This document shows positions 33,436 through 53,817 of a stretch of 64,000 nucleotides of DNA, piece by piece. Position 1 is the first letter of the stretch. The number at the start of each line of letters is the position of its first letter. Origin of the DNA: Actinomycetales bacterium (GTDB taxonomy: Bacteria; Actinomycetota; Actinomycetes; Actinomycetales; JBBRBF01); the NCBI GenBank assembly GCA_038206105.1, contig JBBRBF010000016.1, positions 655-64,654 on the forward strand, read 5' to 3'. A program made the translations under genes and the position numbers. The notes beneath the pieces are model-generated. The model saw only the letters and a list, made by a program, of their open reading frames with translations, ran no database searches and was not told the origin of the DNA.

Positions 33436-33441
33436 CCCACT

Positions 33442-33521
33442 CCCCTGCCCCCGTCCCCCCACCACCCCCCGGTGATCATGCATGTCGGGTACGGCCTGCG
33501 TACCCGACGCGCATGATCACC
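33442..33521. repeat. REP-like element A: four C-runs followed by a 23-bp-arm palindrome
   Basis: C4-TG-C5-GT-C6-ACCA-C6, then GGTGATCATGCATGTCGGGTACG-GCCTG-CGTACCCGACGCGCATGATCACC. Confidence 0.85.
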
Positions 33522-33553
33522 TAGGGGTGCTGGTGCGTGGCAGGCTGGGCACC

Positions 33554-34435
33554 GTGGAAAGGCCTCGCTGCGGCATCGTCGTCACGCCGATGCTGGACGC
33601 AGACGCGACCGCCGACGTCGCCCGCGCCGCCGAGCGCGCCGGCTGGGACGCCGTCTTCGTGTGGGAGGCGGTCTGGGGCCTCGACGCCTGGGTCCGGATG
33701 ACGGCCGCCGCCGCCGCGACGAGCACGATCCGGCTCGGCACGATGCTCACCCCGCTGCCCCGCGTTCGCCCCTGGGACCTGGCGTCCAGAGCGGTCACCC
33801 TGGACCGGTACAGCGGCGGGCGGTTGCAGCTGGCGGTGGGGATCGGCGCGCCGCACGAGGGCTGGACGGCGTTCGAGGCCGATCCGGGCCGACGCGAGCG
33901 GGCGCTGCTGCTGGACGAGGGCCTCGACGTCTACGACGGCCTGATGCGCGGCCAGCCGTTCGGCTACGACGGTCGCCGCTACCGGGTGCGACCGACGGAG
34001 TTCTTCCCGCCGCCGCCGCCCGTGCAACGCCCCCGGGTGCCGGTGTGGGTGGTCGGTGCGTGGGACGCCGAGTCCGCCGCGGCCACCGGTGACGGCACCA
34101 CCCCGTCGCTGCGACGCGCCGCCCGCTGGGACGGCGTGATCCCCACCGTTCTCGGACCGCCGACGACGGTGGGGGGCCTGGCAACACGGGTCCGGTCCCT
34201 GGCCGGCCCCGACGAGCTCGCCACGCTGCTGGAGGACACCCGCCGCGTCCGGGCCGCTGCGGGCCTGCCCTGGGAGGGCTTCGACGTCGTCCACGAGGCG
34301 GACGGCGGCCCCTCGAGCGCCGACGCCATGGCGCCGTGGGCCGATGCCGGCGTCACGTGGTGGCTGCAGAGCGACTGGGAGCACATGGACGCCGCGACCC
34401 TCGAGCGCCACGTGGACGCCGGTCCCCCGTTCTGA
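33554..34435 (+). CDS. LLM-class (luciferase-like) flavin-dependent oxidoreductase
   Basis: AERAGWDAVFVWE, IRLGTMLTPLPR.RPW.LA, TLDRYSGGRL.L.VG.G, PVWVVG, RAARWDG; start placed downstream of the palindrome. Confidence 0.9.
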   Translation: MERPRCGIVVTPMLDADATADVARAAERAGWDAVFVWEAVWGLDAWVRMTAAAAATSTIRLGTMLTPLPRVRPWDLASRAVTLDRYSGGRLQLAVGIGAPHEGWTAFEADPGRRERALLLDEGLDVYDGLMRGQPFGYDGRRYRVRPTEFFPPPPPVQRPRVPVWVVGAWDAESAAATGDGTTPSLRRAARWDGVIPTVLGPPTTVGGLATRVRSLAGPDELATLLEDTRRVRAAAGLPWEGFDVVHEADGGPSSADAMAPWADAGVTWWLQSDWEHMDAATLERHVDAGPPF

Positions 34436-34451
34436 CCACCCCGCCACACAC

Positions 34452-34565
34452 GTGATCATGCACGTCGGGTACGTGACGCGTACCCGACGTGCATGATCAC
34501 CGCGGGGTCGGGGGGCGGGGGCGTACCCGACGTGCATGATCACCGAGGGGGGCTGGGGACGGGGG
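34452..34565. repeat. REP-like element B: perfect 22-bp-arm palindrome, an extra right arm and G-tracts
   Basis: GTGATCATGCACGTCGGGTACG-TGACG-CGTACCCGACGTGCATGATCAC, second arm copy at 34522-34544, six G-runs. Confidence 0.9.
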
Positions 34566-34570
34566 TGCGG

Positions 34571-36058
34571 TCAGGGGACGGTGGCGCCGGTTGCCACGGA
34601 GGCGACTGTGGCGGCGGCGCCACGCTCGTGCAGCGAGCGCAGGGCCGCGGTGTACGCCGCCACGAAACGCTCGTCGTCCACCAGGTCCCCGAAGACCTCG
34701 CGGTCGGCGATGAACGCCGTCGCATCCTCGCGGTTTCGGGCGGCGCTGGCCATCAGCCGGTCGCGGAGCCGGTCCACGACTTGGATCGGCTCACCCTGCT
34801 CGTCGGTGCCCTCGGCGTAGCGCGCCCACGCCGCCACCACGAGCGCGGACCGCTCGATCTCCGCGCCGGTGGCGAGCTGGTGGCGGATCACGGGCAGCAG
34901 CCACTTCGGGATCCGGTCGGAGGACTCCGCGCAGAGCCGCGCCAGGGTGTCGCGGACCTCGGGGTTGGCGAACCGCTCGATCAGGGTCCGCCGGTAGGTG
35001 TCGAGCTCGACGCCCGGCACCGGGTCGAGGCTGGGAGTCCCCTCGTGCTCCATGTAGCCCAGCAGGAACTCCACGAACGTGGGGTCCGCGCACACGTCGT
35101 GGGCGTAGCGGTACCCGGCCAGGTAACCGAGGTAGCACAGGGACTGGTGCCCGGCGTTGAGCAGCCGCAGCTTCATCAGCTCGTAGGGGTGCACGTCGTC
35201 GACGACCTGGACGCCGACCTCCTCCACCGGTGGCCTGCCGGCGGCGAAGTCGTCCTCGAGCACCCACTGCGTGAAGGGCTCGCACACGACCGGCCAGCGG
35301 TCCTCGATGCCGAAGCGCTCGGCGAGCACGGCACGGTCGGTGTCGCTGGTGACCGGTGTGATCCGGTCGACCATGGAGCTCGGGAACCGCACGTGCTCGG
35401 CGACCCACTCCCCCAGCGCGGCGTCCTTGGCCCGGGCGAAGCCGATGACCGCCTTGCGCGCGACCTCGCCGTTGCCCTGGATGTTGTCGCACGACATCAC
35501 GGTCAGCGGCCCCACGCCGCGCTCGCGTCGCCGGGCCAGCCCCTCGGTCAGCAGCCCGAGGAACGAGGCCGGGACGGCGCCGGGCGACAGGTCCGCCCGC
35601 ACCCCAGGGTCGCGCTCGTCGAGCTCGCCGGTCTCCGGGTGCGTCGGGTAGCCGCCCTCGGTGACGGTGAGGGACACCACCCGCACCTGTGGCGAGGCGA
35701 TCCGTTCGACCACGGCCGCCGGGTCGTCGGGTGCGAAGAGGTACTCGACCATCGAACCCACCACGTGGGGCTCGAGCGTGCCGTCCGGGTGCTTCACGAC
35801 GAGGGTGAACAGGCAGTCCTGCGCCGCCATCGCGTCCCGCATCGCGGTGTCCCCCGGCAGCACACCGACGCCGCAGACCCCCCAGTCCAGGGCTGAGCCG
35901 GCGTTCATCAGGGCGTCGAGGTACATCGCCTGGTGCGCCCGGTGGAAGCCCCCGACGCCGAAGTGGACGATGCCGACCGAGACGGCGTCGCGGTCGTACG
36001 AGGGCACGGGCACCCTCCCGCCGACGTCCGGCAGGCCGGCGGTGGACAGAGCGGTCAT
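34571..36058 (-). CDS. Mannitol dehydrogenase family (mannitol/D-arabinitol 2-dehydrogenase)
   Basis: IVHFGVGGFHRAHQ, SLTVTEGGY, SCDN, SMVDRITP, KLRLLNAGH, DRIPK; AAGGAG RBS. Confidence 0.95.
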   Translation of the reverse strand: MTALSTAGLPDVGGRVPVPSYDRDAVSVGIVHFGVGGFHRAHQAMYLDALMNAGSALDWGVCGVGVLPGDTAMRDAMAAQDCLFTLVVKHPDGTLEPHVVGSMVEYLFAPDDPAAVVERIASPQVRVVSLTVTEGGYPTHPETGELDERDPGVRADLSPGAVPASFLGLLTEGLARRRERGVGPLTVMSCDNIQGNGEVARKAVIGFARAKDAALGEWVAEHVRFPSSMVDRITPVTSDTDRAVLAERFGIEDRWPVVCEPFTQWVLEDDFAAGRPPVEEVGVQVVDDVHPYELMKLRLLNAGHQSLCYLGYLAGYRYAHDVCADPTFVEFLLGYMEHEGTPSLDPVPGVELDTYRRTLIERFANPEVRDTLARLCAESSDRIPKWLLPVIRHQLATGAEIERSALVVAAWARYAEGTDEQGEPIQVVDRLRDRLMASAARNREDATAFIADREVFGDLVDDERFVAAYTAALRSLHERGAAATVASVATGATVP

Positions 36059-36104
36059 CGTCGGGCTCCTTCGCACGTGGTGACGGTCCGGGCGACTCGT
36101 CGGG

Positions 36105-36998
36105 TCACTTGATCGCCCCCATCGAGAGGCCGCGCACCAGCTGCTTCTGGGCGACCCAGCCGGCGATGATGACCGGCAGCGAGGCGAGCGTCGCGGCTGC
36201 TGACAGCTGGGCGAAGAACAGGCCCTGGCTCGTGATGAAACCGACGAGGTAGACGGGCACGGTGCTCGCCGCCGACGCCGTCAGGTTCACCGCGAAGAAG
36301 AACTCGTTCCACGCGAAGATGACGCAGATGAGGGCGGTGGCCGCGATGCCGGGTCCGACCATCGGCAGCATCACGTAGCGCCACGTCTTCATCAGACCGG
36401 CGCCGTCCATCTGCGCGGCCTCCAGGACCTCTCCGGGGATCTCCTGCATGAAGGACCGCATCATCCACAGCGCGATCGGCAGGTTCATCGACGTGTAGAG
36501 CACGATGAGCAACCCGATGCTGTCGATCGCTTTGATCTGGCCGGCGATCACGTAGAGCGGCACGATGACCGCCACGACGGGCAGCATCTTGGTGGAGATC
36601 GCGAAGAACAGCACGTCCTGCGTCTTCTTCACCGGTCGGATGGACAGCGCGTAGGCGGCGGGCACCCCGAGCACGAGCACCAGCAGCGTGGACAGCACGG
36701 TCGCCACCATCGAGTTGACGAAGAACGGTGCACCGCGGTCGAGCACCGTGGCGAACTGCTCCAATGTCGGGGTGAAGAACAGGTTCGGAGTCTCGGTGTA
36801 CGCGTCCGCCTCGTTCTTGAAGCCGGTGACCACCATCCAGAACACCGGGAAGAAGAACAGGCCTGCGAGCACCCACGTGAGGACGGTCAGCGCGGTCCCC
36901 TTGGAGCCCCCGCCGGAGGGGGTACGCCCCGGGGCGCGGGGCGCGCGGGACGGGCGGGTGCCGGCGCTGTCGCCGGCCGTCTGTGCCTGCGTGCTCAT
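36105..36998 (-). CDS. Polyol ABC transporter permease (SmoG/MtlG-like)
   Basis: EAA motif EVLEAAQMDGA, FAWNEFFFA. Confidence 0.93.
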   Translation of the reverse strand: MSTQAQTAGDSAGTRPSRAPRAPGRTPSGGGSKGTALTVLTWVLAGLFFFPVFWMVVTGFKNEADAYTETPNLFFTPTLEQFATVLDRGAPFFVNSMVATVLSTLLVLVLGVPAAYALSIRPVKKTQDVLFFAISTKMLPVVAVIVPLYVIAGQIKAIDSIGLLIVLYTSMNLPIALWMMRSFMQEIPGEVLEAAQMDGAGLMKTWRYVMLPMVGPGIAATALICVIFAWNEFFFAVNLTASAASTVPVYLVGFITSQGLFFAQLSAAATLASLPVIIAGWVAQKQLVRGLSMGAIK

Positions 36999-37954
36999 GG
37001 CGTCTCCTTGGTGAAGCTCGTGAAGATGAGGCGCAGGGCCACGGTCGCCACGATGATCGTGCCGATCACGACGACCACGCCCATCGCGGCGGCCTGTCCG
37101 ACGTCGAAGCCGAGGAACGCCCGCTGGTAGATGTAGAAGGGCAGGTTCGCGCTCGCTGTGCCCGGCCCGCCCTGCGTCATCATGTAGATGTGGTCGAAGG
37201 TGTTGACCACGTAGATGGCGCCGAGCAGCACGGACAGCTCGATGTAGCGGCGCATGTGCGGCAGCGTGATGTAGAGGAACGTGCGCCAGGGACCGGCGCC
37301 GTCGACCTGCGCCGCCTCCAGCGACGACCGGTCCTGGCTCTGCAGCCCGGCGAGGAGCAGCAGCATCATGAACGGCGTCCACTGCCAGACGAGCGCCGTC
37401 ACCACGGCGCCGACGGGGAACTGCGAGATCCAGTCGATGTCCCCGAGACCGAATGGGCTGAGCACCCAGCCGACGATCCCGTAGGTCGGGTCGAACATCG
37501 TCGTCTTCCACAGGAGCGCACCCGCGACGGGCATCACGAGGAACGGTGTGATGAGCATCGTCCGCGCCAGGCTCCGGCCGCGGAACGGCCGGTCGAGCAG
37601 CACGGCGAGCAGCAGGCCGATGAGCAGCGCGATGAGCACGCAGGCCCCCGTGATGACAATCGTGTTCAGCGCCGCCTGCCGGAACACTCTGTCCTGGAAC
37701 ACTTCCACGTAGTTGCTCAGGCCGACGAACTGCCGCGAGCCGGGGCGCACGAGGTTCCAGGACTGCAGGGAGTACCAGACCGTCACGAGGAACGGGAACT
37801 GCGTGACGAGGATGAGGAACACCAGGGCGGGCAGGAGCGGCGCGCGCCGCACCCAGCCGGCCCGCCGCTCGTCACGCTTCGGGTGGTGACCGTCTCCGCT
37901 CGCCGGCGCGGTCGGAGTCCCCGACGCTGGGGGCCCCTTCGTCAGTGTGGTCAT
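36995..37954 (-). CDS. Polyol ABC transporter permease (SmoF/MtlF-like)
   Basis: WQWTPFMMLLLLAGLQS, EAAQVDGA, TQGGPG. Confidence 0.93.
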   Translation of the reverse strand: MTTLTKGPPASGTPTAPASGDGHHPKRDERRAGWVRRAPLLPALVFLILVTQFPFLVTVWYSLQSWNLVRPGSRQFVGLSNYVEVFQDRVFRQAALNTIVITGACVLIALLIGLLLAVLLDRPFRGRSLARTMLITPFLVMPVAGALLWKTTMFDPTYGIVGWVLSPFGLGDIDWISQFPVGAVVTALVWQWTPFMMLLLLAGLQSQDRSSLEAAQVDGAGPWRTFLYITLPHMRRYIELSVLLGAIYVVNTFDHIYMMTQGGPGTASANLPFYIYQRAFLGFDVGQAAAMGVVVVIGTIIVATVALRLIFTSFTKETP

Positions 37955-39342
37955 CGCCCGTCCTCCTGGTAGCTGTCGCCCACGTTCTGCGCGTACTTCT
38001 GTGACTGCTCGATGGCCTGGTCCACCGTGATCTGACCCGCGATCGCGGCCGAGATCTGCTGGCTGACACGGGTTCCGAGGTCCTGGAACTCGGGGATGCC
38101 GACGAACTGGATGCCGCGGTAGGGAACCGGGTCCACCGTGGGGTCCTCCGGGTCTGCCAGCGCCAGCGCCGTCAGGGTCGGCTCGGCGAACGCCTGCGCA
38201 GCCGCGGCGTACTCCGGGATCTCGTACGTCGACAGGCGACTGCCCGGCGGCACGGCCGACCAGCCCTTCTCCTCGCCGACGAGCTGCATGTAGTCCTTGT
38301 TCGTCATCCAGGAGATGAACTCCCAGGCGTCGTCCTTGCGCTCGGAGGTCTCCGGGATCGCCAGCGACCAGGCGTACAGCCACCCGGACGACTCCGTCTC
38401 CTCCACCGGCGCCTGCGCGTAGGCGTTGAGGCCGGCCACGGTGGAGTCGGTCTCGGACTCCGTGGTGCCGACCATGGACGTCGCGTCGTACCACATCGCA
38501 GCGTCGCCCTGGGTGTACTGGGTCGCGCAGCCCGAGAAGCCGGCCTGGGCGGCGCCGGGGGTGCCGTACTCACGCACGAGGTCGACATAGAACTCGATCG
38601 CGGCACGGCTCTCGGGCGAGTCGAGCTGGGCGTTCCAGTCCTCGTCGAACCAGCGGCCACCGAAGGTGTTGATGACCGTGTCGAGGGGCGCGAGGTTCTC
38701 GCCCCAGCCCGCCAGCCCGCGAAGGCAGATGCCGGCCAGCCCGGCCTCGTCGTCGTCGAGCTCGGCGGCGAAGTCGCGCACCTCCTGCCACGTGGGCTGC
38801 TCGGGCATCTCGAGGCCGGCGTCGTCGAAGAGGTCCTGGCGGTAGACGAGGAACGAGGACTCGCCGTAGAAGGGCACCGAGTACAGGTCACCGTCGACGG
38901 ACAGCGACTCGGCGATGCTCGGAACGAAGTCCTCCGGGTCGTAGCCCGGCGTCTGCTCGGCGTACGGCTGCAGGTTGACCAGCCAACCGTTGTCGGCCCA
39001 CATCGGCGTCTCGTAGTTGCTGATCATCACGATGTCGAACTCGCCGCCGCCGGTGGCGACCGACGCGGTGATCTTGGCGCGGGCCGAGTTCTCCGACAAA
39101 GACACGAACCGCAGGTCGATGTCGGGGTTGTCGGCCTCGAAGCGATCCGACAACGAGATCGCATCCTCCATCTGGGAGTTGGAGATGATGGCCACGACCA
39201 GCGGGTCGCTGCCGCCCGCGGACCAGCTGCCGGCCCCGCCGCAGGCGGCCAGCCCGGTCGACGCAGCCACGGCCGCCGCCGCCGCTGCGACACGTCGCCG
39301 CCGGCGGCCGGCGCCGTGTGCGCGCCTTGTCGCTCTGCTCAT
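37951..39342 (-). CDS. Polyol/sugar ABC substrate-binding lipoprotein (SmoE/MtlE-like)
   Basis: Lipobox LAAC, YETPMWA, PFYGESS, CLRGLAGWGE, WLYAWSL, PEFQDLG. Confidence 0.92.
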   Translation of the reverse strand: MSRATRRAHGAGRRRRRVAAAAAAVAASTGLAACGGAGSWSAGGSDPLVVAIISNSQMEDAISLSDRFEADNPDIDLRFVSLSENSARAKITASVATGGGEFDIVMISNYETPMWADNGWLVNLQPYAEQTPGYDPEDFVPSIAESLSVDGDLYSVPFYGESSFLVYRQDLFDDAGLEMPEQPTWQEVRDFAAELDDDEAGLAGICLRGLAGWGENLAPLDTVINTFGGRWFDEDWNAQLDSPESRAAIEFYVDLVREYGTPGAAQAGFSGCATQYTQGDAAMWYDATSMVGTTESETDSTVAGLNAYAQAPVEETESSGWLYAWSLAIPETSERKDDAWEFISWMTNKDYMQLVGEEKGWSAVPPGSRLSTYEIPEYAAAAQAFAEPTLTALALADPEDPTVDPVPYRGIQFVGIPEFQDLGTRVSQQISAAIAGQITVDQAIEQSQKYAQNVGDSYQEDGR

Positions 39343-39736
39343 CGAAGGGTCCCTTCACTATCGCCCCGGGGTTCCGGGGCGTCCTGGACGATCGCGACCT
39401 TGCCCGCGGCGCCGGAGTCGGCGACGCGGTAGGCCTCGTCGGCGTCGGCGATGCCGAGCCGGTGGGTCACGACGACGTCGAGGTGGACGTCGTGGCGGTC
39501 GACGCCAGAGCCGACGGCGACCACGTCGCCGCACGGCTCGTGCCCGGCGACCACGCCCTGGTAGGCCTCCGGCCCGGTCCCGAGGTGCTCGCGATAGATC
39601 GCGCGGACGTCGCTGCCGCAGATGGTGGAGGCACGCGGCCGCACCAGCACCTGGCCGTGACCGGGCTGCAGGTCGGGCAGGTCGGGCAGGTCGCGCAGCT
39701 CGGTGCGCGAGGCGCCGGGCAGCAGGACCCGTGCAT
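39339..39736 (-). pseudogene. Zinc-binding alcohol/polyol dehydrogenase remnant (codon-3 frameshift and large internal deletion)
   Basis: GAGGAGG-ATG at 39736 is out of frame with VLLPG...ICGSD...GHEPCG.VVAVGSGV, which is fused directly to the C-terminal VVTHRL...EAY...GKV. Confidence 0.85.
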
Positions 39737-39810
39737 CGCGTCCTCCTCGCCCGCGGTCACACCGCGCTGTCGCTTGACCGCGACATGTTCTTGCTCTTAT
39801 GAGTGCTACC

Positions 39811-39840
39811 CATCTCATCTGAGATGTGATGTGATGTCAT
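39811..39840. promoter_or_regulatory. AT-rich divergent promoter/operator with palindrome CATCTCA-TC-TGAGATG and GATGT direct repeats
   Basis: Lies between the divergent polyol operon and the SorC/DeoR-type regulator. Confidence 0.6.
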
Positions 39841-39902
39841 TCATAGGGCCCCGGTCCTGGGACTGTCAAGGCTCGGTCACGTAACGTCGGGAGGATCTAC
39901 GT

Positions 39903-40958: not shown

Positions 40959-40964
40959 GGAACC

Positions 40965-42118: not shown

Positions 42119-42207
42119 GGGTCCATCGTGCCGCACCGCCGCGCGGCCGCCGCGGCGCCGCGGGGCCGTCCCCGCACCGACCCGCGTTGTGGGTAGCGTG
42201 CGCAGGT

Positions 42208-43287: not shown

Positions 43288-43288
43288 C

Positions 43289-46324: not shown

Positions 46325-47121
46325 CCCAGCCCCCCGACGCGGGAGACGCCGCCGTCGAGCACGACCGTCTGCCCGGTGAGCCAGGCCGCGTCGTCCGAGA
46401 GCAGGAACGCGACGGCACCCGCGACGTCGTCGGGCACGCCGAGGCGGCCCAGGGGGTAGGCGGCGGCGACCTGCTCCTCGCGGCCGGAGTACAGCGCACT
46501 CGCGAACTGCGTCTTGACGATCGCGGGCGCGACCGCGTTGACGCGCACCGCCGGCGCCAGCTCGACCGCCAGGCAGGCGGTGAGGTGGGCGACGGCGGCC
46601 TTGCTGACCCCGTACATCGCGATGCCGGGGGCGGGCTGGACGCCCGCGATCGACGACAGGGCGACGACGGCTCCGCCACGCTCGCGCAGCGACGCCCGCC
46701 AGGCCTGCTGCACCCAGCCGAGGGTTGCCAGCACGTTCACGTCGAGGATCTTGCGACCGGCAGCGAGGTCGAGGTCGACCAGCGGTCCGTGCACGGGGTT
46801 GATGCCCGCGTTGGCGACGAGCAGGTCCACCGGGCCGAACGCCGCGGCGGTGCGCTCCAGCGTCTCGACCTGGTGGTCCGGGTCGTCCGCGGGGCCGGCG
46901 ACCCCGAGCGCCGACACCTCGCCGCCGAGGTCCGCGACGGCCGTGGCCAGTGCGTCGGCGTGGCGCGCGGTCACGCACACCCGAGCGCCCTCGTCGACCA
47001 GACGCCGCGCCACGGCGAGCCCGATCCCGCGGCTCGCGCCGGTGACGACCGCCACCCGGCCGGTGAACCGGCCGCCGGGCGCCGTGTCGGGGTGCGCCTG
47101 CACTGCCCCGGCGGCGCTCAC
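46321..47121 (-). CDS. SDR-family 3-oxoacyl reductase-like oxidoreductase
   Basis: TGASRGIG, NAGINP, YGVSKAA, RVNAVAP.IVKT.F. Confidence 0.93.
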   Translation of the reverse strand: MSAAGAVQAHPDTAPGGRFTGRVAVVTGASRGIGLAVARRLVDEGARVCVTARHADALATAVADLGGEVSALGVAGPADDPDHQVETLERTAAAFGPVDLLVANAGINPVHGPLVDLDLAAGRKILDVNVLATLGWVQQAWRASLRERGGAVVALSSIAGVQPAPGIAMYGVSKAAVAHLTACLAVELAPAVRVNAVAPAIVKTQFASALYSGREEQVAAAYPLGRLGVPDDVAGAVAFLLSDDAAWLTGQTVVLDGGVSRVGGLG

Positions 47122-48263
47122 AGCCCGAGGTCCCGGCCGACGATCTCCTTCATGATCTCGTTCGAGCCCGCCCAGATCTTCGTGACGCGGGCGTCCCGCC
47201 AGGCTCGCGCGACGCGGTACTCGTTCATGTACCCGTAGCCGCCGTGCAGCTGCACGCAGGCGTCGATCACGTCGTTCTGCACCTCGGCGGACCACCACTT
47301 CGCCTTCGCCGCGTCGGGCGCGGAGAGGTCCCCGTCGCCGTGCAGGGCGACGCACTGGTCGACGAAGGCGCGCGTCACGTCGATCTTGGTGACGAGCTCG
47401 GCGATCGTGAACTTGTTGTGCTGGAACGAGCCGATGCTCTGCCCGAACGCCGTCCGCTCGCGCGTGTACTCGATCGTCTCGGCGAGGATCTGGGCGGCAT
47501 GCGCGGTGTTCGACACCGCAGCACCGATCCGCTCCCCCACCAGGTGCTCCATCATGTGCACGAAGCCGCGGTCGACCTCCCCGATCACGTTGCCCGCAGG
47601 CACCCGGACGCCGTCGAAGAAGAGCTCGGCGGTGTCGGACTCGGTCTGGCCGACCTTGTCGAGCTTGCGCCCGCGGTCGAAGCCCGCCATACCCGTCTCG
47701 ACGGCGAACAGCGTGATCCCCCTGGAGCCGCCCTCGGCTGTCGTCCGCGCCGCCACGATCACGAGGTCCGCGGACCAGCCGTTGGTGATGAACGTCTTCG
47801 AGCCGCTCAGCACCCAGTCGCCGCCGTCACGGCGGGCCGACGTCCGCAGTGCCGCCAGGTCGGACCCGCCCCCGGGCTCGGTCATGGCGATCGCGGTGAG
47901 CAGCTCACCCGTGCAGAAACGGGGAAGCCACCGCTGCCGCTGCTCCTCGGTGGTCAGCTCGACGAGGTACGGCGCGACGACGGAGGAGTGGATCCCGAAG
48001 CACGAGGAGATCGAGGCTGACAGCGCCGAGAGCTCCTCGGCGACCACCACGCCGAAGCGGGGGTCCTCGGACCCCTGGCCGCCGTAGGCGTCCGGTACGC
48101 GCATCCCGAGGAAGCCCTGCTTGCCCGCCTCGATCCACACGTCGCGCGGCAGGCCGCGCGCCTCGACGAACTCGTCCATCCGCGGTCGCAGGGACCGGTC
48201 GCAGAACTCGCGGACGGACGCGCGCAGCGCCTCGTGCTCGGCGGTGAACAGCGTACGACGCAC
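47118..48263 (-). CDS. Long-chain acyl-CoA dehydrogenase
   Basis: IAMTEPGGGSDL, SKTFITNG, ER, QLHGGYGYMNEY, IWAGSNEIMK. Confidence 0.95.
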   Translation of the reverse strand: MRRTLFTAEHEALRASVREFCDRSLRPRMDEFVEARGLPRDVWIEAGKQGFLGMRVPDAYGGQGSEDPRFGVVVAEELSALSASISSCFGIHSSVVAPYLVELTTEEQRQRWLPRFCTGELLTAIAMTEPGGGSDLAALRTSARRDGGDWVLSGSKTFITNGWSADLVIVAARTTAEGGSRGITLFAVETGMAGFDRGRKLDKVGQTESDTAELFFDGVRVPAGNVIGEVDRGFVHMMEHLVGERIGAAVSNTAHAAQILAETIEYTRERTAFGQSIGSFQHNKFTIAELVTKIDVTRAFVDQCVALHGDGDLSAPDAAKAKWWSAEVQNDVIDACVQLHGGYGYMNEYRVARAWRDARVTKIWAGSNEIMKEIVGRDLGL

Positions 48264-48295
48264 GGTGCCTCCGGGGTGTTACGGTCGCGGCATGA

Positions 48296-48311
48296 GTGAG
48301 CGCTTGCTCAC
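48296..48311. promoter_or_regulatory. Candidate TetR operator
   Basis: GTGAGC-GCTT-GCTCAC palindrome between the divergent ACAD and TetR genes. Confidence 0.65.
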
Positions 48312-48360
48312 CGCTCAGCGTCGGTCCCCCCGGGCCCGGGTGTCAAGGCGGTCCGACGCG

Positions 48361-49005
48361 GTGACCGCGGGCAATGTCGGTGGGCGGCCCGCTGTCGCCC
48401 AGGTGTGGCCGGACGACGTCCCTCCGGCCGCGCGACGACTGCTCGACGCTGCCGTCGCCGCCTTCGCCGAGCGCGGCTACCACGGCACGACGACCCGCGA
48501 CATCACGGGCCGCGCGGGGCTGAGCCCCGCCGGGCTGTACGTGCACTACCCCTCCAAGGCAGCGGTGCTCGGGCACGTCAGCCGGATCGGCCACGAACGG
48601 GCGCTCGACCTTGTGCGGGAGTGCCTCGCCGGTGGCGGCCGGCCCCGGGACCGGCTGCACGACCTCGTCGCCACGTTCGTCGCCTGGCACGCCGAGCACC
48701 ACACGATGGCCCGGGTGGTGCAGCACGAGCTCGCGGCGCTGACGCCGGAGGACCGGGCCGAGGTGACACGGCTGCGCCGGGCCCTGGAGCGCGCGGTGGC
48801 CGCGGAGGTCCGCCGCGGCGCGGCCGTCGGTGACCTGGTCGTGCCCGCTCCGCGCCAGGCGACGCGTGCCATGCTCTCCCTCGCCGTGGACGTGGCCCGC
48901 TGGTACGACCCTGGAGGTCGGGAGTCGCCCCAGCGTCTCGGCCGCGTGTACGCCGACCTCGCCCTGCGGATGCTGGGCGCCGCCGAGACGAAGGACGCTC
49001 CGTGA
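48361..49005 (+). CDS. TetR/AcrR-family transcriptional regulator
   Basis: LLDAAVAAFAERGYHGTTTRDI..RAGLSPAGLYVHYPSK; start uncertain (48292, 48361 or 48403). Confidence 0.92.
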   Translation: MTAGNVGGRPAVAQVWPDDVPPAARRLLDAAVAAFAERGYHGTTTRDITGRAGLSPAGLYVHYPSKAAVLGHVSRIGHERALDLVRECLAGGGRPRDRLHDLVATFVAWHAEHHTMARVVQHELAALTPEDRAEVTRLRRALERAVAAEVRRGAAVGDLVVPAPRQATRAMLSLAVDVARWYDPGGRESPQRLGRVYADLALRMLGAAETKDAP

Positions 49006-49889
49006 GCCAGGCCGCGACGACCCCCCTCGCCGAGCTGTGCGCCGTCCTCGACCTGGAGGAGCACGGCAGCGACGACCGAGGTCAGGACCGATTCCTCGGG
49101 CAGAGCCAGCGCCAGCCGCACGGCAGGGTGTTCGGCGGGCAGGTGCTCGGGCAGGCCCTCGTCGCCGCGGGGCGGACTGTGGCGGCGGACCGCCCGGTGC
49201 ACTCGATGCACGGGTACTTCCTGCGCGCCGGCGACTCCACGGAGCCGATCGAGTTCGCCGTCGAGCGGCTGCGCGACGGCCGGTCGTTCAGCGCCCGGCG
49301 GGTGCACGCGCTGCAGCAGGACCGGCCGATCCTGTCGATGATCGCGTCGTTCCAGCACGACGACCCCGGCCTGGACCACGCCGACCCGATGCCGGACGTC
49401 CCCGCGCCGGAGGACCTGCCCACCACCGCGGACCTGATCGGCCACATCGACCACCCGGCCGCCCGGTACTGGAGTCGCGAGCGGCCGATCGACGTGCGCC
49501 ACGTGCAGGACCCGGTGTACCTCGTCGCGGCCGACGAGCGCACCGCGCGGCAGGCGGTGTGGCTGCGTGCGGACGGCACGCTGCCCGACGCCCCGCTGCT
49601 GCACCGGGCCGTGCTGGGCTACGCGAGCGACTACACGCTGCTCGAGGCGGTGCTGCGCCGCCACGGCGTCGCATGGGCGACGCCGGGGCTGAAGGCGGCG
49701 AGCCTCGACCACGCGATGTGGTGGCACCGCCCGGGTCGCGCCGACGACTGGCTCCTGTACGTGCAGGGCAGCCCGTCGGCATCGGGGTCGCGCGGCCTGG
49801 GCATCGGCCGGCTCTTCGCGCGCGACGGCACCCTCGTGGCCTCCGTGGCGCAGGAGGGGATGGTCCGCGTCCCGCCCCCGCAGGGCTGA
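49002..49889 (+). CDS. tesB: Acyl-CoA thioesterase II
   Basis: RVFGGQVLGQAL, HSMHGYFLRAGD, RDGRSF, YASD, SLDHAMW, SVAQEG. Confidence 0.95.
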   Translation: MSQAATTPLAELCAVLDLEEHGSDDRGQDRFLGQSQRQPHGRVFGGQVLGQALVAAGRTVAADRPVHSMHGYFLRAGDSTEPIEFAVERLRDGRSFSARRVHALQQDRPILSMIASFQHDDPGLDHADPMPDVPAPEDLPTTADLIGHIDHPAARYWSRERPIDVRHVQDPVYLVAADERTARQAVWLRADGTLPDAPLLHRAVLGYASDYTLLEAVLRRHGVAWATPGLKAASLDHAMWWHRPGRADDWLLYVQGSPSASGSRGLGIGRLFARDGTLVASVAQEGMVRVPPPQG

Positions 49890-49902
49890 GACGCCGGCCC
49901 GC

Positions 49903-51249
49903 TCACAGACCGGCCCGCGCGATCTCGCGGCAGGCGTCCGCCACGTGGGTGCGGAAGACCTCGACGTCGCGCTCGTGGTGACCGCCGCCCTCGAACGCGT
50001 CCACAAGGAGGTCAAGCTCGCCGAGCAGGCGGGCGCGCACGGTCCGGTCGGACGAGCGGGTGCCGACCCGCTCGGCGAGCTCGACGGCGGTGTGCATCAC
50101 CGACGGCGCGCTCGCGGCGTACCAGCGCATCGCGTCGAGCACCATTCCCACCATCTCGGTGAGGTCGGCGCGCGGTGCGTAGAGCCGGATCGTCCCCTGC
50201 TCGTCGTAGCGCGCGGCCGACGGCGTGACCCGACCCGCGAGCAGGCCCAGCCCCGAGGACAGGTCGTCCAGGGCGTTCACCGCGGTGAAGGGGTCGTTGG
50301 TGCCGGGCGACAGTGCCCGGACGGCCATCTCGGTGAGCTGCTGCACGGCGAACTCGAGGTCCTGGTAGGGGCTGCGCGCATTGGCGAGCGTGAAGGCGCC
50401 GCGGACGGCGTCGACGAGCTCGGCTCGGTCGTCGTCGTCGGGTAGTCCGTGCACCACTGCCAGGACCGTGTCGTCGAGCACGTACTGCCCGGGGCGCACC
50501 TGCAACGCGAGCAGCACGTCGTACCGGCGCGCCGTCCGCATCAAGGAGTCCTCGCGCACCGACTGCACGTAGCCGGGCGCCTCGGCGAGCACCGGGACAC
50601 CCTCCCCGGCCGCGTCGTCCGGCACGGCCGTGGCCTGTGCGTCGACCTCGGACTCACCCCGGCCACCGAGCTCCGGGTACAGCCGCTGCACGGTCGCGCG
50701 CAGGTCGGTGCGCACCGCGCTGGACAACGTGGCGACCTGGATCGAGTCGCTGATGTGGTGGATGAAGTAGACGAGCATGCCGACGTTGAGGATCGCGAGC
50801 AGGACGGCCACGTTGACGGCGATGTGCGGCACGAAGACGTCGCCCTGCTGCGCCCCCGGGTCGCCGATCACCCGGACGGACCGGAGCACGAGCAGGCTGT
50901 ACAGGAAGGTCGCGACGTAGACACCGAGGACCAGCTGGTTGCCCCGGTCGACCATGAAGTTGCGCACGAGCCGTGGCCCGTAGGTCGAGGAGGTCAGGGC
51001 CAGCACGGCCATCGTGATCGAGAACGTCGTCCCCGCGACGGCGAGCGCCGACGCGCCGATGGTGCCGAGGATGTCGCGGCTGCCACTGCCCCCGACGCGG
51101 ACGACGAAGAGGTCCAGCACCGGGCCGGGTGTGATGTCGCCCAGGGTCTGGTCGAGCCGCACGAGGCTCTGGGCGAGCACGAACGCTGCCAGGCAGAGGA
51201 TCGCAGGCAGGAACCAGAACTTCTCGCGGAGCCGCAGCAGCAGGTTCAC
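49903..51249 (-). CDS. DUF2254-family membrane protein
   Basis: FSIT...L.L.SSTYGPRL, FVATFLYSL, QDLEFAVQQL.EMAVRALSPG.NDP.TA. Confidence 0.9.
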   Translation of the reverse strand: MNLLLRLREKFWFLPAILCLAAFVLAQSLVRLDQTLGDITPGPVLDLFVVRVGGSGSRDILGTIGASALAVAGTTFSITMAVLALTSSTYGPRLVRNFMVDRGNQLVLGVYVATFLYSLLVLRSVRVIGDPGAQQGDVFVPHIAVNVAVLLAILNVGMLVYFIHHISDSIQVATLSSAVRTDLRATVQRLYPELGGRGESEVDAQATAVPDDAAGEGVPVLAEAPGYVQSVREDSLMRTARRYDVLLALQVRPGQYVLDDTVLAVVHGLPDDDDRAELVDAVRGAFTLANARSPYQDLEFAVQQLTEMAVRALSPGTNDPFTAVNALDDLSSGLGLLAGRVTPSAARYDEQGTIRLYAPRADLTEMVGMVLDAMRWYAASAPSVMHTAVELAERVGTRSSDRTVRARLLGELDLLVDAFEGGGHHERDVEVFRTHVADACREIARAGL

Positions 51250-51274
51250 GCCCGCGAGCCTGCCAGGTCCGCGC

Positions 51275-52957
51275 TCAGTCGCGAGTCAGCTTGCGGTACG
51301 TGACGCGGTGGGGGCGGGCGGCGTCGGCGCCCAGGCGCTCGACCTTGTTCTCCTCGTAGGACGCGAAGTTGCCCTCGAACCAGTACCACGTCGCCGGGTC
51401 CGTCTCGTCGCCCTCGTAGGCGAGGATGTGCGTGCAGACCCGGTCGAGGAACCACCGGTCGTGGGAGATCACCACGGCGCAGCCGGGGAAGTCGAGCAGC
51501 GCGTTCTCCAGCGAGCCGAGCGTCTCGACGTCCAGGTCGTTCGTCGGCTCGTCGAGCAGCAGCAGGTTGCCGCCCTCCTTGAGGGTCAGCGCCAGGTTGA
51601 GCCGGTTGCGCTCCCCGCCGGAGAGCACGCCGGCCGGCTTCTGCTGGTCCGGACCCTTGAAGCCGAACGAGGACACGTAGGCCCGCGACGGGATCTCGAC
51701 GTTGCCGACCTGGATGTAGTCGAGCCCGTCGGAAACCACCTCCCAGAGCGTCTTCTTCGGGTCCAGGCGCCCACGCTCCTGGTCCACGTAGGAGATCTTC
51801 ACGGTGTCGCCGATCTTCACCGTGCCGTCGTCAGGCTCCTCGAGCCCCACGATCGTCTTGAAGAGCGTGGTCTTGCCGACGCCGTTGGGTCCGATGACAC
51901 CGACGATCCCGTTGCGCGGCAGCGAGAACGACAGGTCGTCGATGAGGACCCGGTCACCGAAGCCCTTGCGCAGCCCGGTGGTCTCGATCACCTGGCTCCC
52001 CAGCCGCGGCCCCGGGGGGATCTGGATCTCCTCGAAGTCGAGCTTGCGGGTGCGCTCGGCCTCGGCGGCCATCTCCTCGTACCGAGCGAGGCGGGAGCGC
52101 GACTTGGTCTGGCGGGCCTTGGCGTTGGAGCGCACCCACTCCAGCTCGTCCTTGAGCCGCTTGGCGAGCTTGACGTCCTTCTTGCCCTGGACGCTGAGCC
52201 GCTCCTGCTTCTTCTCCAGGTACGTGGAGTAGTTGCCCTCGTAGGGGTAGAGCCGACCGCGGTCGACCTCGGCGATCCACCCGGCGACGTTGTCGAGGAA
52301 GTACCGGTCGTGCGTCACGGCGAGCACGGCGCCCGGGTACTTCGCCAGGTGCTGCTCGAGCCAGCTCACCGACTCGGCGTCGAGGTGGTTCGTGGGCTCG
52401 TCGAGCAGCAGCAGGTCGGGCTTGGACAGCAGCAGCTTGCACAGCGCGACCCGGCGCCGCTCGCCGCCGGACAGCACCGTGACGTCTGCGTCGGCGGGCG
52501 GGCAGCGCAGCGCGTCCATCGCCTGCTCGAGCTGGGAGTCCAGGTCCCAGGCGTCGGCGTGGTCGAGGGCCTCCTGCAGCTCGCCCATCTCGGCGAGCAG
52601 CGCGTCGTAGTCGGCGTCGGGCGAGGCCATCTCGGCCGAGATCGCCTCGAACCGGTCGGCCTTGGCCTTGATCTCGCCCAGGCCCTCCTCGACGTTGCCG
52701 AGGACCGACTTCTCCTCGTTCAGCGTCGGCTCCTGCTGCAGGATGCCGACGCTGTACCCCGGGGACAGGCGCGCCTCACCGTTCGACGGCTGGTCGAGCC
52801 CCGCCATGATCTTGAGGATCGTGGACTTGCCGGCCCCGTTCGGACCCACGACGCCGATCTTGGCGCCGGGGAGGAAGTTGAGGGTGACGTCGTCCAGGAT
52901 GACCTTGTCGCCGAGCGCCTTGCGCGCCTTGTACATGCTGTAGATGAACTCCGCCAT
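51275..52957 (-). CDS. ettA: ABC-F energy-dependent translational throttle protein
   Basis: MAEFIYSM, two ABC cassettes (GPNGAGKST and GPNGVGKTT, LSGGE twice), WFEGNF..YE. Confidence 0.97.
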   Translation of the reverse strand: MAEFIYSMYKARKALGDKVILDDVTLNFLPGAKIGVVGPNGAGKSTILKIMAGLDQPSNGEARLSPGYSVGILQQEPTLNEEKSVLGNVEEGLGEIKAKADRFEAISAEMASPDADYDALLAEMGELQEALDHADAWDLDSQLEQAMDALRCPPADADVTVLSGGERRRVALCKLLLSKPDLLLLDEPTNHLDAESVSWLEQHLAKYPGAVLAVTHDRYFLDNVAGWIAEVDRGRLYPYEGNYSTYLEKKQERLSVQGKKDVKLAKRLKDELEWVRSNAKARQTKSRSRLARYEEMAAEAERTRKLDFEEIQIPPGPRLGSQVIETTGLRKGFGDRVLIDDLSFSLPRNGIVGVIGPNGVGKTTLFKTIVGLEEPDDGTVKIGDTVKISYVDQERGRLDPKKTLWEVVSDGLDYIQVGNVEIPSRAYVSSFGFKGPDQQKPAGVLSGGERNRLNLALTLKEGGNLLLLDEPTNDLDVETLGSLENALLDFPGCAVVISHDRWFLDRVCTHILAYEGDETDPATWYWFEGNFASYEENKVERLGADAARPHRVTYRKLTRD

Positions 52958-53051
52958 GGCGACCAGGCTAGTCGCCGGTGACGGGGCCACCGGCCAGCGG
53001 CCACCGGCACGGGCGACCAGCCGGCCGGACGGTCGGCGACGCGGCCGTCGC

Positions 53052-53537
53052 TCAGCCGGACGCCGCCGCGGCAGCCACGCTGTCGCCGGCTCCCGCGTCA
53101 CCGGCGTCCGACTCCGGGGTTCCGAGGACGGCGGCGTCCGGCGCCACGGCGGCGTCGGGTGGTCCTCCGCTCGACGCGCGCACCACGCGGGTGAACCGCG
53201 TCGTCCCGAACGTCAGGTCGTGCCCCACGTGGTCCGCGGTGATCTCGACCGTGCTGCGGCTGTTGCCGTCGCGGTCCTCCCAGGTGTCCACGCCGAGCCG
53301 ACCGACGACGACCACCCGCTCGCCCTTGCGCAGCGACTCCCCGGTGTTCGCGCCGAGCTGGCGCCAGGCGCTGACCTGGTAGAAGCACGTCCGCCCGTCG
53401 GTCCACCCGCCTGACCCGTCGGGCACCCGGGGCGTGCACGCGAGTCGGAAGCCGGTGACGCGGACGTCGTCGGCCACCTGGCGCTGCACCGGGTCCGCGA
53501 CGAGGTTGCCGACGACGGTGACGCTCGTGCTGTTCAT
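53052..53537 (-). CDS. ssb: Single-stranded DNA-binding protein, second paralog (SsbB/Rv2478c type)
   Basis: VTVVGNLVADP, FRLACTPR, V.AWRQLG.N...SL.KG.RV.V.GRL, VGHDL..G; no DDxPF tail. Confidence 0.92.
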   Translation of the reverse strand: MNSTSVTVVGNLVADPVQRQVADDVRVTGFRLACTPRVPDGSGGWTDGRTCFYQVSAWRQLGANTGESLRKGERVVVVGRLGVDTWEDRDGNSRSTVEITADHVGHDLTFGTTRFTRVVRASSGGPPDAAVAPDAAVLGTPESDAGDAGAGDSVAAAAASG

Positions 53538-53701
53538 GGGTCCCTACCTCCTCCTCCCGCCGGCGGCGGGACGCAGCAGAGGCTGCCGCCGCACCGGGCA
53601 CGTCGGCACCCCTGCGGCGGTGGGCCGGGGACAGCCGGACCCACCTGCGGACCTGGGGACGGGTCGCTCGCAGCGGCGACGGGCCGCGCCGCGCGCGCAA
53701 G

Positions 53702-53817
53702 CGAACCCGACGTGCATGACCACCGCGCGGGAGCGGACCCGAGGTGCATGATCACCGCGCGGGAGCGGACCCGGAGTGCATGATCACCGGGGGTCCGGGG
53801 GCGGGGCGTCAGCGGGG
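53702..53817. repeat. REP-like element C: three tandem right-arm copies at 32-bp period followed by four G-runs
   Basis: ACCCGACGTGCATGACCACC / ACCCGAGGTGCATGATCACC / ACCCGGAGTGCATGATCACC, then G5-TCC-G5-C-G4-CGTCAGC-G4. Confidence 0.85.

What the first reader, a model, noticed from the sequence alone, without database searches (positions are those of the whole stretch)
33442..53817. REP-like palindrome family consistently fused to G-quadruplex-capable tracts
Three intergenic loci share the arm CGTACCCGACGTGCATGATCACC. A (33471-33521) is a full hairpin preceded by C4/C5/C6/C6 runs with 2-4 nt loops, a canonical four-tier G4 on the minus strand. B (34452-34565) is a perfect hairpin plus an extra arm and six G-runs. 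C (53702-53817) has three arms and then G5/G5/G4/G4 with loops 3, 1 and 7. The G-tract is always on the GATCACC side of the arm. There is no GTAG or CGTC tag like RAYT-associated REPs and no transposase in the window. Inference: an undescribed non-autonomous hairpin+G4 element acting at 3' ends or in nucleoid organisation.
Basis: partly seen in the sequence, partly recalled or inferred. Interest (0 to 1): 0.72.

Follow-up and report, generated by a model that had tools for sequence, protein, structure and literature searches.

The report
Gene-end repeat with G-run tail
A conserved 23-base DNA box with a tail of G-runs occurs about 190 times just past the stop codons of an uncultured high-GC actinobacterium; it is a new family of the REP/TRIT kind of gene-end repeat, and its G-quadruplex potential lies on the strand that is not copied into the neighbouring gene's mRNA.

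Summary
The three loci, the shared arm and the listed G/C runs are in the sequence as described. Across the genome (3.1 Mb, 74.8% GC) I count 189 arms in 98 loci. The G-rich tail on the GATCACC side holds for the whole family: G is 0.61 and C 0.16 in the first 25 nt. Seventeen of the 37 strongest intergenic G4 motifs (four runs of G4 or more) in the genome sit on arm tails.

Two parts of the title are overstated. Only 29-40% of outer tails have four G-runs, and there is no preference for four. Only 37 of 98 loci contain a hairpin; single arms and direct arrays fold no better than shuffled sequence.

The tail lies flush against a TGA stop codon, and the adjacent gene's mRNA reads the C-rich complement (71% C, 10% G) followed by GGUGAUCAUGCAC. 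The G-strand is therefore the template strand.

No RAYT (the REP-associated transposase) and no cargo gene was found. Orthologous sites are filled in one lineage and empty in another.

Best reading: a lineage-restricted, non-autonomous gene-end repeat (REP/BIME/TRIT-like) with a built-in strand-asymmetric tail. It probably acts at the RNA level, as a Rho entry tract plus a 3' hairpin. Its G4 potential looks like a by-product.

The parts
33433..33435 (+). TGA stop codon of the alpha-amylase-family gene. The C-tract of locus A starts at the next base.
   Evidence: Gene call 31741-33435; Pfam PF00128; sequence.
33436..33470 (+). Locus A C-tract (C3/C4/C5/C6/C6). This is the G-rich tail of arm A1 read on the minus strand, where it forms a canonical PQS.
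33471..33493 (-). Arm A1 (1 mismatch to the arm).
33499..33521 (+). Arm A2 (1 mismatch). It pairs with A1 across a 5-nt loop. The RNA fold of 33436-33550 is -75.4 kcal/mol, z = -6.6, and the C-tract pairs with the downstream G-rich stretch.
33522..33553 (+). Weak G-rich tail of A2 (only two G3+ runs). It faces the start of the LLM oxidoreductase gene.
34433..34435 (+). TGA stop codon of the LLM (luciferase-like) oxidoreductase gene.
34436..34450 (+). Short C-rich tract (tail of arm B1).
34451..34473 (-). Arm B1.
34479..34501 (+). Arm B2 (perfect match). It forms the hairpin with B1; the fold z-scores are -5.2 (+ strand) and -4.4 (- strand).
34502..34521 (+). 20-nt G-run spacer (G4, G6, G5) between B2 and B3. 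It gives a 43-bp period.
34522..34544 (+). Arm B3 (perfect match), a direct repeat of B2.
34545..34570 (+). G-run tail (G6, G4, G5). It runs up to the stop codon (34571-34573, minus strand) of the mannitol-dehydrogenase-family gene, whose mRNA reads it as a C-tract.
53702..53788 (+). Locus C: three direct arms (53702-53724, 53734-53756, 53766-53788) with two identical 9-nt spacers GCGCGGGAG and a 32-bp period. It has no more RNA structure than shuffled sequence (z = +0.7 and +0.8).
53789..53808 (+). G-run tail of locus C (G5, G5, G4). It abuts the stop codon (53809-53811, minus strand) of a GTPase-family gene. The fourth G-run (53814-53817) lies inside that gene.

Best explanation
This is a lineage-restricted, non-autonomous dispersed repeat of the REP/BIME/TRIT kind.

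Anatomy (shown). The basic unit is not a palindrome. It is an asymmetric module of about 32 nt: a conserved 23-nt box, CGTACC(C/T)G(A/G)N-GTGCATGATCACC, followed by a G-run tail (GNRRGGGG...; median about 27 nt, up to 95 nt). Units occur singly (36 loci), in direct arrays with a 31-33-bp period (25 loci), or head-to-head as long hairpins (37 loci). The element lies flush against TGA stop codons with its tail toward the gene. That gene's mRNA therefore reads stop, then a C-rich G-poor tract, then GGUGAUCAUGCAC..GGGUACG.

Evolution (shown in part, otherwise inferred). The tail belongs to the unit and is not imposed by context. Slippage has probably expanded it in places into (G4-5 N)n microsatellites, which would explain why so many of the genome's strongest G4 motifs hang on arms. 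Copies are gained and lost between lineages, and arrays grow by local tandem or inverted duplication. What disperses the element is unknown.

Likely action (inferred, not shown). At the RNA level, the unstructured poly-C-like tract right after the stop codon would be a good entry (rut) site for the genome's Rho factor. In the 38% of loci with inverted pairs, the very stable U-tract-less hairpin would set or protect transcript 3' ends, as proposed for REP and TRIT elements. The G4 potential on the template strand is most likely a by-product.
For: Copy number and conservation: 186 arms at 4 or fewer mismatches; 189 arms in 98 loci after removing chance hits inside genes. Box positions 12-23 are at least 94% invariant.

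Tail:
- G is 0.6-0.85 at +15 to +24 from the core start.
- The first 25 nt of outer tails are G 0.61 / C 0.16, with 3.3 G3+ runs per 50 nt against 1.5-1.7 in control 3' flanks.
- 17 of 37 intergenic four-tier PQS lie within 60 nt of an arm, although such DNA is only 2.2% of intergenic DNA. All 17 are on the tail side and the arm strand.
- The tail is intrinsic: tails facing 5' ends are as G-rich as those facing 3' ends (0.60 vs 0.61, p = 0.28).

Gene-end anchoring:
- 48 convergent, 39 co-directional and 9 divergent intergenic contexts.
- 99 of 126 outer tails face a stop codon (p = 7e-11).
- In co-directional contexts the tail lies at the upstream stop in 23 loci and at the downstream start in 6 (p = 0.002).
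- The stop-to-box interval is 71% C / 10% G. 97 of 99 stops are TGA, and 'TGA CCC' occurs in 38% against 9% genome-wide. Twelve genes stop at the TGA inside the box.
- 80% of tails reach the stop codon.

Structure: loci with inverted pairs have mean z = -7.7; single arms and direct arrays have z near 0 on either strand. No covariation was found within the unit. No U-tract terminators are present.

Local amplification: spacers are identical within arrays.

Gain and loss: locus A is empty in the syntenic contig L026. Own C41:10573-10579 is empty where L014 carries three arms and a C-tract that replaces the end of the orthologue.

The same box occurs in other Actinomycetota MAGs and in one metagenome population, in different architectures.

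Rho is present, with an actinobacterial-type R/Q/G/D-rich insertion.

A published parallel: TRIT elements are conserved palindromes at mycobacterial gene ends that overlap little with termination events and are probably RNase III substrates (PMC3152330, PMC13714241).
Against: - There is no transcript data.
- C-tracts are short (median about 20-27 nt) for a full rut site.
- The near-invariant box is unexplained by either the hairpin or the rut idea and points to an unidentified sequence-specific partner.
- Arm spacing is quantised at about 32, 42 and 52 bp. This hints at protein binding on one face of the DNA rather than an RNA role.
- The orientation bias could reflect an insertion preference rather than function.
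- The genome is a 92.7%-complete MAG, so a mobilising gene could have been missed.
Confidence: 0.6

Rival explanations
1. One reading: a hairpin plus DNA G-quadruplex element. The G-runs fold into G4 on the G-rich strand and, with the hairpin, block polymerases or organise the nucleoid at gene ends.
For: - G-runs are strongly enriched, and only on the tail side and arm strand.
- 46% of the genome's intergenic four-tier PQS are attached to arms.
- Loops are mostly 1 nt, which favours stable parallel G4.
- Mean G4Hunter score of the first 25 nt of tails is 1.60.
- The orientation bias is also compatible with a G4 roadblock on the template strand.
Against: - Only 29% of outer tails (40% with loops up to 12 nt) have four runs.
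- Run counts form a smooth distribution with its mode at 2-3 and no step at 4, unlike the four-unit preference reported for Xanthomonas G4 repeats (PMC4692102).
- The G-strand is the template strand, so the neighbouring mRNA cannot form the G4.
- Ahead of RNA polymerase, and between convergent genes, positive supercoiling disfavours strand opening. This last point rests on established knowledge, not a test here.
- In hairpin loci the G-tract can pair with the opposite C-tract.
- In the related Ga0081539 population, tails usually carry a single G5-7 run.
Confidence: 0.1
2. The element is selfish or neutral DNA with no host function. It spreads by an unknown copy-and-paste route, possibly template switching primed on G/C-run microhomology, and survives only where insertions are harmless, that is just past stop codons.
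For: - Orthologous sites are filled or empty between lineages.
- Positions are not conserved between lineages.
- The tail is equally G-rich in every context.
- Arrays grow locally.
- Divergent promoter regions are depleted, as for REPs and MITEs.
- Some copies truncate gene ends.
Against: - Harmlessness alone does not explain the flush abutment to the stop codon on the tail side only.
- It does not explain the 23:6 orientation bias in co-directional contexts.
- It does not explain the near-invariant 12-nt core shared by diverged lineages.
Confidence: 0.2
3. The box is a DNA-binding site for a host protein, such as a nucleoid-associated protein, a topoisomerase, a regulator like ArgR, or an uptake-sequence receptor. 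Arrays would then be phased multi-site platforms.
For: - The sequence, not the structure, is conserved. Single sites are common.
- Arm-to-arm distances cluster at 31-33, 41-43 and 52-53 bp, with none at 35-40 or 44-51.
- The 42-bp period recurs in the relative with an unrelated spacer.
- TGCATG(A/G)TCA resembles half of a Streptomyces ARG box (PMC5839063).
- Neisseria uptake sequences likewise occur singly or as inverted pairs at gene ends (PMC13714241).
Against: - A symmetric DNA role does not predict orientation relative to transcription.
- Sites are almost absent from promoters.
- The box is only a half-match to the ARG box and is not palindromic.
- Uptake sequences are not confined to intergenic DNA and do not form 32-bp arrays.
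- The number of independent loci behind the spacing pattern is small (9; my estimate is p about 0.01).
Confidence: 0.1

Closest known systems
REP / BIME / REPIN elements of Proteobacteria (with RAYT transposases)
   Same: Short, high-copy and extragenic. Enriched between convergent genes and at 3' ends. Occur singly, in inverted pairs and in clusters. Depleted from promoter regions.
   Different: The unit is not itself a palindrome. There is no GTAG/CGTC tag and no RAYT in the genome. It carries a strand-asymmetric G-run tail that abuts the stop codon. Direct arrays have a fixed 32-bp period.
TRIT motif of Mycobacterium (Gardner et al. 2011, PMC3152330; RNase III processing proposed in PMC13714241)
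   Same: Actinobacterial, lineage-restricted, about 150-200 copies, strongly conserved sequence. Placed at or overlapping stop codons, often bidirectional, without a U-tract. Its conservation also suggests an unknown protein partner.
   Different: TRIT is always a palindrome. Here 62% of loci have no hairpin, and the unit carries a C-tract/G-tract tail. I could not compare the sequences because no TRIT model was available.
G-quadruplex-forming GGGNATC / GGGGAYT heptamer repeats of Xanthomonas and Nostoc (Rehm et al. 2015, PMC4692102)
   Same: G-run repeats spread over intergenic DNA, close to ORF ends, and under-represented between divergent genes.
   Different: [quoted passage not shown] Here there is no preference for four, the G-runs are on the non-coding (template) strand, and they are appended to a conserved 23-nt box.
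Rho utilisation (rut) sites
   Same: A C-rich, G-poor, unstructured RNA tract immediately after the end of translation. Rho is encoded in the genome.
   Different: rut sites are not known as parts of a dispersed repeat with a conserved box. The tracts here are short. No termination data exist.

Membership tests
REP/REPIN (RAYT-associated) | The unit is an imperfect palindrome that folds into a hairpin. | tested here: not met
   Single arms (36 loci) and direct arrays (25 loci) fold no better than shuffles (mean z -0.15 to +0.04). Only the 37 loci with inverted pairs fold strongly (z = -7.7).
REP/REPIN (RAYT-associated) | A GTAG or CGTC tetranucleotide tag at the end of the palindrome. | tested here: not met
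   Hairpin ends read GGTGATCA...TGATCACC. CGTC occurs only inside the stem, in the 39% of arms with C at the variable position.
REP/REPIN (RAYT-associated) | A cognate Y1 (IS200/IS605-type) RAYT gene in the genome, usually flanked by REPs. | tested here: not met
   PF01797 found no match at E <= 0.01 in the 92.7%-complete genome, while the control genomes matched. Genes bracketed by two loci are unrelated housekeeping genes.
REP/REPIN (RAYT-associated) | High copy number, extragenic, enriched at 3' ends and between convergent genes. | tested here: met
   189 arms in 98 loci. Contexts: 48 convergent, 39 co-directional, 9 divergent.
MITE | Terminal inverted repeats, a target-site duplication, and a parent IS sharing the ends. 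| tested here: inconclusive
   Inverted arms exist (34 head-to-head and 4 tail-to-tail pairs). No target-site duplication could be defined, because the filled and empty sites are too diverged. No parent element was found.
TRIT (Mycobacterium) | A conserved palindromic motif at or overlapping stop codons. | tested here: inconclusive
   Position at stop codons is met (median 20 nt; 12 arms overlap the stop). The palindrome is met in only 38% of loci. Sequence relatedness to TRIT was not tested because no model was at hand. TRIT is reported as restricted to Mycobacterium (PMC3152330).
Canonical intrinsic terminator | A GC-rich hairpin followed by a U-tract. | tested here: not met
   No terminator-like sites in 33300-34700. 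The hairpins are followed by G-runs.
G4-forming intergenic repeats | At least four G-tracts with short loops, with selection for four. | tested here: not met
   Canonical PQS in 29% of outer tails. G3+ runs per 40 nt are distributed 0:2, 1:16, 2:29, 3:31, 4:23, 5:14, 6:10, 7:2, 8:1, with no step at 4.
G4-forming intergenic repeats | Quadruplex folding shown biophysically (CD, DMS, K+ dependence). | not testable with these tools
Rho-dependent terminator (rut + pause) | A C-rich, G-poor, unstructured RNA upstream of the release site. | tested here: met
   The stop-to-box interval is 71% C / 10% G (n = 62). Gene-sense RNA of single and direct loci is unstructured (z near 0). The tracts are short (median tail 27 nt).
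Rho-dependent terminator (rut + pause) | Rho-dependent transcript ends at the site. | not testable with these tools
Rho itself is encoded.

The most novel reading that the evidence does not exclude
The unit is a portable Rho-dependent terminator cassette. It would be a dispersed, possibly mobile module that delivers a poly-C-like Rho entry tract flush to a stop codon, followed by a conserved box that pauses RNA polymerase or binds a partner protein. If so, high-GC Actinomycetota, whose structured G=C-rich RNA offers Rho few natural entry sites, would acquire transcript ends by repeat insertion. The G/C-run tail might also be the microhomology that lets the element copy itself without a transposase.
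Probability: 0.2. Interest if true: 0.75.

Novelty: new variant of a known kind. Interest (0 to 1): 0.5.

Why it matters
Actinobacteria largely lack canonical U-tract terminators, and how their transcripts end is an open question. TRIT in Mycobacterium is the only described conserved gene-end repeat in the phylum, and its role is still debated.

This family offers a second, structurally different case: a sequence-conserved box with a built-in poly-C/poly-G tail, set flush to stop codons and oriented with respect to transcription. It gives a concrete construct for testing Rho entry against a template-strand G4 against hairpin protection: box plus or minus tail, in both orientations.

It also shows that G4-motif censuses in high-GC genomes can be dominated by one repeat family. 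Here 46% of the strongest intergenic motifs belong to it. Such enrichment at gene ends should therefore not be read as selection for G4.

In practice, gene callers extend ORFs into the repeat, and some genes take their stop codon from it.

Tried and rejected
- Partner gene. The DUF559/AbiEi-like gene at C15:2237-3154 sits between a '<<' and a '>>>>' array and looked like a nuclease in the loop of a giant hairpin. Its three paralogues have no arms nearby, so I rejected it.
- Bracketed genes. All 15 gene sets bracketed by two loci within 3 kb are unrelated housekeeping genes (FolD, aminotransferase, aldo-keto reductase, 5'-3' exonuclease and others). None looks like a cargo or transposase unit. 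The LLM gene between loci A and B sits in the same amylase-LLM synteny without repeats in L026.
- Palindromic extension. Left and right tails of inverted pairs are only marginally more complementary than tails from different loci (9.3 vs 8.2, p = 0.0125).
- Covariation inside the unit. None was found beyond adjacent positions 9-10.
- ARG-box similarity. Only a half-site matches.
- DnaA-box word. TTGTCCACA, seen between arms in the related metagenome population, is not enriched next to arms in this genome.
- Databases. Rfam gave only two sub-threshold chance hits. Plasmid and phage collections gave no match. Earlier-findings look-ups by sequence found nothing.
- Close relatives. None are in the databases: the best LLM orthologue is 72% identical. 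Insertion boundaries and target duplications therefore could not be defined.

Full report
**Observation**

The window holds eight copies of the arm CGTACCCGACGTGCATGATCACC with 3 or fewer mismatches, against 0 expected.

- Locus A is a head-to-head pair with a 5-nt loop. It is preceded by C3/C4/C5/C6/C6 runs that start at the base after the TGA of the upstream amylase-family gene.
- Locus B is a perfect pair plus a third, direct arm 43 bp on. It has G4/G6/G5 between the arms and G6/G4/G5 after them, running up to the stop codon of a convergent mannitol-dehydrogenase-family gene.
- Locus C is three direct arms with a 32-bp period and identical 9-nt spacers. They are followed by G5/G5/G4 up to the stop codon of a GTPase-family gene, and a fourth G4 run lies inside that gene.

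By the canonical rule (four runs of G3 or more, loops 1-7), A and C qualify. B does not unless an 8-nt loop and a run inside the coding sequence are allowed.

**Genome-wide picture**

The window belongs to a 3.11-Mb assembly of 96 contigs with 74.8% GC. It is 92.7% complete and is the only representative of its family among the 61 genomes searched in its order.

I found 186 arms at 4 or fewer mismatches, and 193 copies of the core GTGCATGATCACC at 1 or fewer. After dropping chance core matches inside genes, 189 arms remain in 98 loci: 36 single arms, 25 direct-only arrays and 37 loci with at least one inverted pair.

Variation is concentrated at arm positions 1, 3, 7 and 9-11. Positions 12-23 are at least 94% invariant.

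**The tail**

Aligned on the core, the sequence right after ...GATCACC reads G-N-R-R-GGGG. G frequency is 0.6-0.85 for about 12 nt and stays near 0.5 for about 35 nt more. Outer tails are G 0.61 / C 0.16 in their first 25 nt. Median length is about 27 nt, 10th-90th percentile 11-53, maximum 95.

Successive G-runs are mostly separated by a single base, with T more common than C and C more common than A. Some loci carry long (G4-5 N)n or longer-unit microsatellites.

Against real-genome controls the enrichment is clear:
- 3.3 G3+ runs per 50 nt, against 1.5-1.7 in arm-free 3' flanks.
- PQS in 19% of arms, against 2-3%.
- 31 of 316 intergenic PQS and 17 of 37 intergenic four-tier PQS lie within 60 nt of an arm, although such DNA is only 2.2% of intergenic DNA. 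All but one are on the tail side and arm strand.

It is not consistent, however. Only 29% of 128 outer tails have a canonical PQS (40% with loops up to 12 nt). The number of runs per tail is a smooth distribution with its mode at 2-3 and no step at four. That differs from the four-unit preference reported for the Xanthomonas/Nostoc G4 repeats (PMC4692102).

**Position and orientation**

I called genes with my own GC3-based caller (2,726 genes; stop codons are exact). Loci lie in 48 convergent, 39 co-directional and 9 divergent intergenic regions.

- 99 of 126 outer tails face a gene's 3' end (p = 7e-11).
- In co-directional contexts with arms in one orientation, the tail lies at the upstream gene's stop in 23 loci and at the downstream gene's start in 6 (p = 0.002).
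- The stop-to-box distance has a median of 20 nt. For the 62 cases with 0 < d <= 45 the whole interval is 71% C and 10% G on the sense strand.
- 97 of 99 stops are TGA. 'TGA CCC' occurs in 38% against 9% genome-wide. Twelve genes use the TGA inside GGTGATCA as their stop.
- 80% of tails reach to within 5 nt of the stop.

The mRNA of the abutting gene therefore carries the C-tract followed by GGUGAUCAUGCAC...GGGUACG. The G-rich strand is its template strand. This is the opposite arrangement to the Xanthomonas repeats, which lie on the coding strand after the stop.

Tails that happen to face a 5' end are just as G-rich (0.60 vs 0.61). The tail is therefore part of the unit and is not created by the 3'-UTR context.

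**Structure**

Loci with inverted pairs fold far better than shuffles (mean z = -7.7). Loci A and B give z = -6.6 and -5.2/-4.4, and in A the C-tract pairs with the downstream G-rich stretch. Single arms and direct arrays, including locus C, fold like shuffled sequence on either strand.

There is no long-range covariation within the unit and no U-tract terminator. The family is thus defined by sequence, not by a hairpin. That points to recognition by some protein or enzyme.

Same-orientation arm-to-arm distances cluster at 29-34 (42 cases), 41-43 (7) and 52-53 (2), with outliers at 58 and 60 and nothing at 35-40 or 44-51. This is suggestive of helical phasing, but it rests on few independent loci.

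**Evolution**

Spacers and arm variants are often identical within an array and differ between arrays, which indicates local tandem amplification. Adjacent inverted arms are only slightly more alike than random pairs (20.8 vs 20.1 of 23 positions).

The exact pattern is absent from 60 genomes of the same order. Among 185,579 species genomes it appears convincingly only in:
- an uncultured Actinomycetota MAG (L014, three arms);
- a Kineosporiaceae MAG (L021, a related 21-nt array);
- a Pseudonocardiaceae MAG (L010).

A metagenome scan found 21 contigs of one sample (Ga0081539; 72-77% GC; 68-79% nucleotide identity to this genome's genes). They carry the arm CGTACCGGAAGTGCATGATCAC[C/G] in other architectures: 42-nt direct pairs with an unrelated 19-nt spacer, tail-to-tail pairs, and usually one G5-7 run after the terminal arm.

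Orthologous sites differ in occupancy:
- The amylase-LLM spacer is filled here and empty in L026, whose LLM orthologue is 72% identical.
- A convergent pair separated by 7 nt here (C41:10573-10579) holds three arms in L014. There the C-tract plus the arm's TGA replace the last roughly 15 codons of the orthologue.

This is the behaviour of an insertional, turnover-prone repeat.

No mobilising gene was found. There is no Y1/RAYT, no transposase-like gene between paired loci, and a DUF559/AbiEi-like candidate was rejected.

**Mechanism**

What is shown:
- An asymmetric unit of box plus G-tail.
- Anchoring flush to stop codons with the C-rich strand in the mRNA.
- Hairpins in only 38% of loci.
- Gain and loss between lineages.

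What is inferred: the C-rich, G-poor, unstructured tract right after translation ends is what a Rho entry site looks like. The genome encodes a 716-aa Rho with the R/Q/G/D-rich insertion typical of Actinobacteria. The very stable U-tract-less hairpins would then set or protect 3' ends, as argued for REP and for TRIT (PMC3152330; PMC13714241). I give 0.6 to the overall reading: a dispersed gene-end repeat with an intrinsic tail, acting if at all at the RNA level, with G4 potential as a by-product.

The rivals are:
- Purely selfish DNA, 0.2.
- A phased DNA-binding site, 0.1.

The conserved box and the quantised spacing remain unexplained by my preferred reading.

**Comparison and novelty**

The family works like REP/BIME and most resembles TRIT in host phylum, copy number, placement and lack of a U-tract. 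It fails the defining REP/REPIN features that I could test: a palindromic unit, a GTAG/CGTC tag and a RAYT.

I found no description of it. Rfam gave nothing, the core word appears in no relevant paper, and there are no plasmid or phage matches.

Three earlier follow-ups of this scan had already noticed the same family in other windows of this genome. They proposed REP/TRIT-like status and a Rho-type idea. I re-derived and quantified those points independently. I add the G-run statistics, the strand assignment, the intrinsic-tail test, the structure census, the spacing pattern and the L014 filled/empty pair.

I rate it a new variant of a known kind, with interest 0.5.

**Limits**

I therefore have no per-genome counts in other carriers and no transcript evidence.

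Noticed in passing
window 33482-34435: The public gene call for the LLM oxidoreductase (317 aa, P0001) starts at the ATG inside the repeat arm (GGTGATCATG). Homologues are 266-303 aa long, so the true start is probably GTG 33554 or later. The repeat's SD-like GGTGATC followed by ATG can mislead gene callers.
   Followed up: partly
window 33440-34570: Another first-reader note suggests the LLM gene is cargo bracketed by repeat ends. In contig L026 the same amylase-LLM synteny exists without any repeat, so the gene was there first and the repeats are later additions at its two ends.
   Followed up: partly
L044, L050, L051, L058, L059 (Ga0081539 contigs), e.g. L058:1777-1842: In the related metagenome population, arms face each other tail-to-tail around GGTTGTCCACAACC-like palindromes. 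These contain the Streptomyces-type DnaA-box word TTGTCCACA. The word is not enriched next to arms in this genome.
   Followed up: partly
genome contig C42:20399-22546 (outside the window): The Rho factor is 716 aa long. It has an insertion of about 270 aa, rich in R/Q/G/D and built of QGQDGQ/QGKDRQ-type repeats, ahead of the RNA-binding domain.
   Followed up: no
genome contigs, e.g. C2:60045, C4:73543, C9:77859, C11:50249, C27:29705, C37:2959 (outside the window): Twelve genes run through the C-tract, giving Pro-rich C-terminal extensions, and stop at the TGA inside the arm. In L014 the same thing replaces the last roughly 15 codons of an orthologue (GGGRTPTPR* against GGGREAPSGQDGPDDTAQA* here).
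   Followed up: partly
genome contigs C20:7187-7256, C30:29455-29524, C22:39924 onward, C6:61469 onward, C1:126225 onward: Long C-run or G-run microsatellites, such as (CCCCCACCCCTGR)5, (GGGGC)6 and a 17-nt unit repeated three times, extend the tails of some arms. They are probably slippage products and would be length-variable in populations.
   Followed up: no
whole genome: 27% of all TGATCA sites (189 of 697) and half of all ATGCAT sites (10 of 20) in the genome lie inside arms.
   Followed up: no
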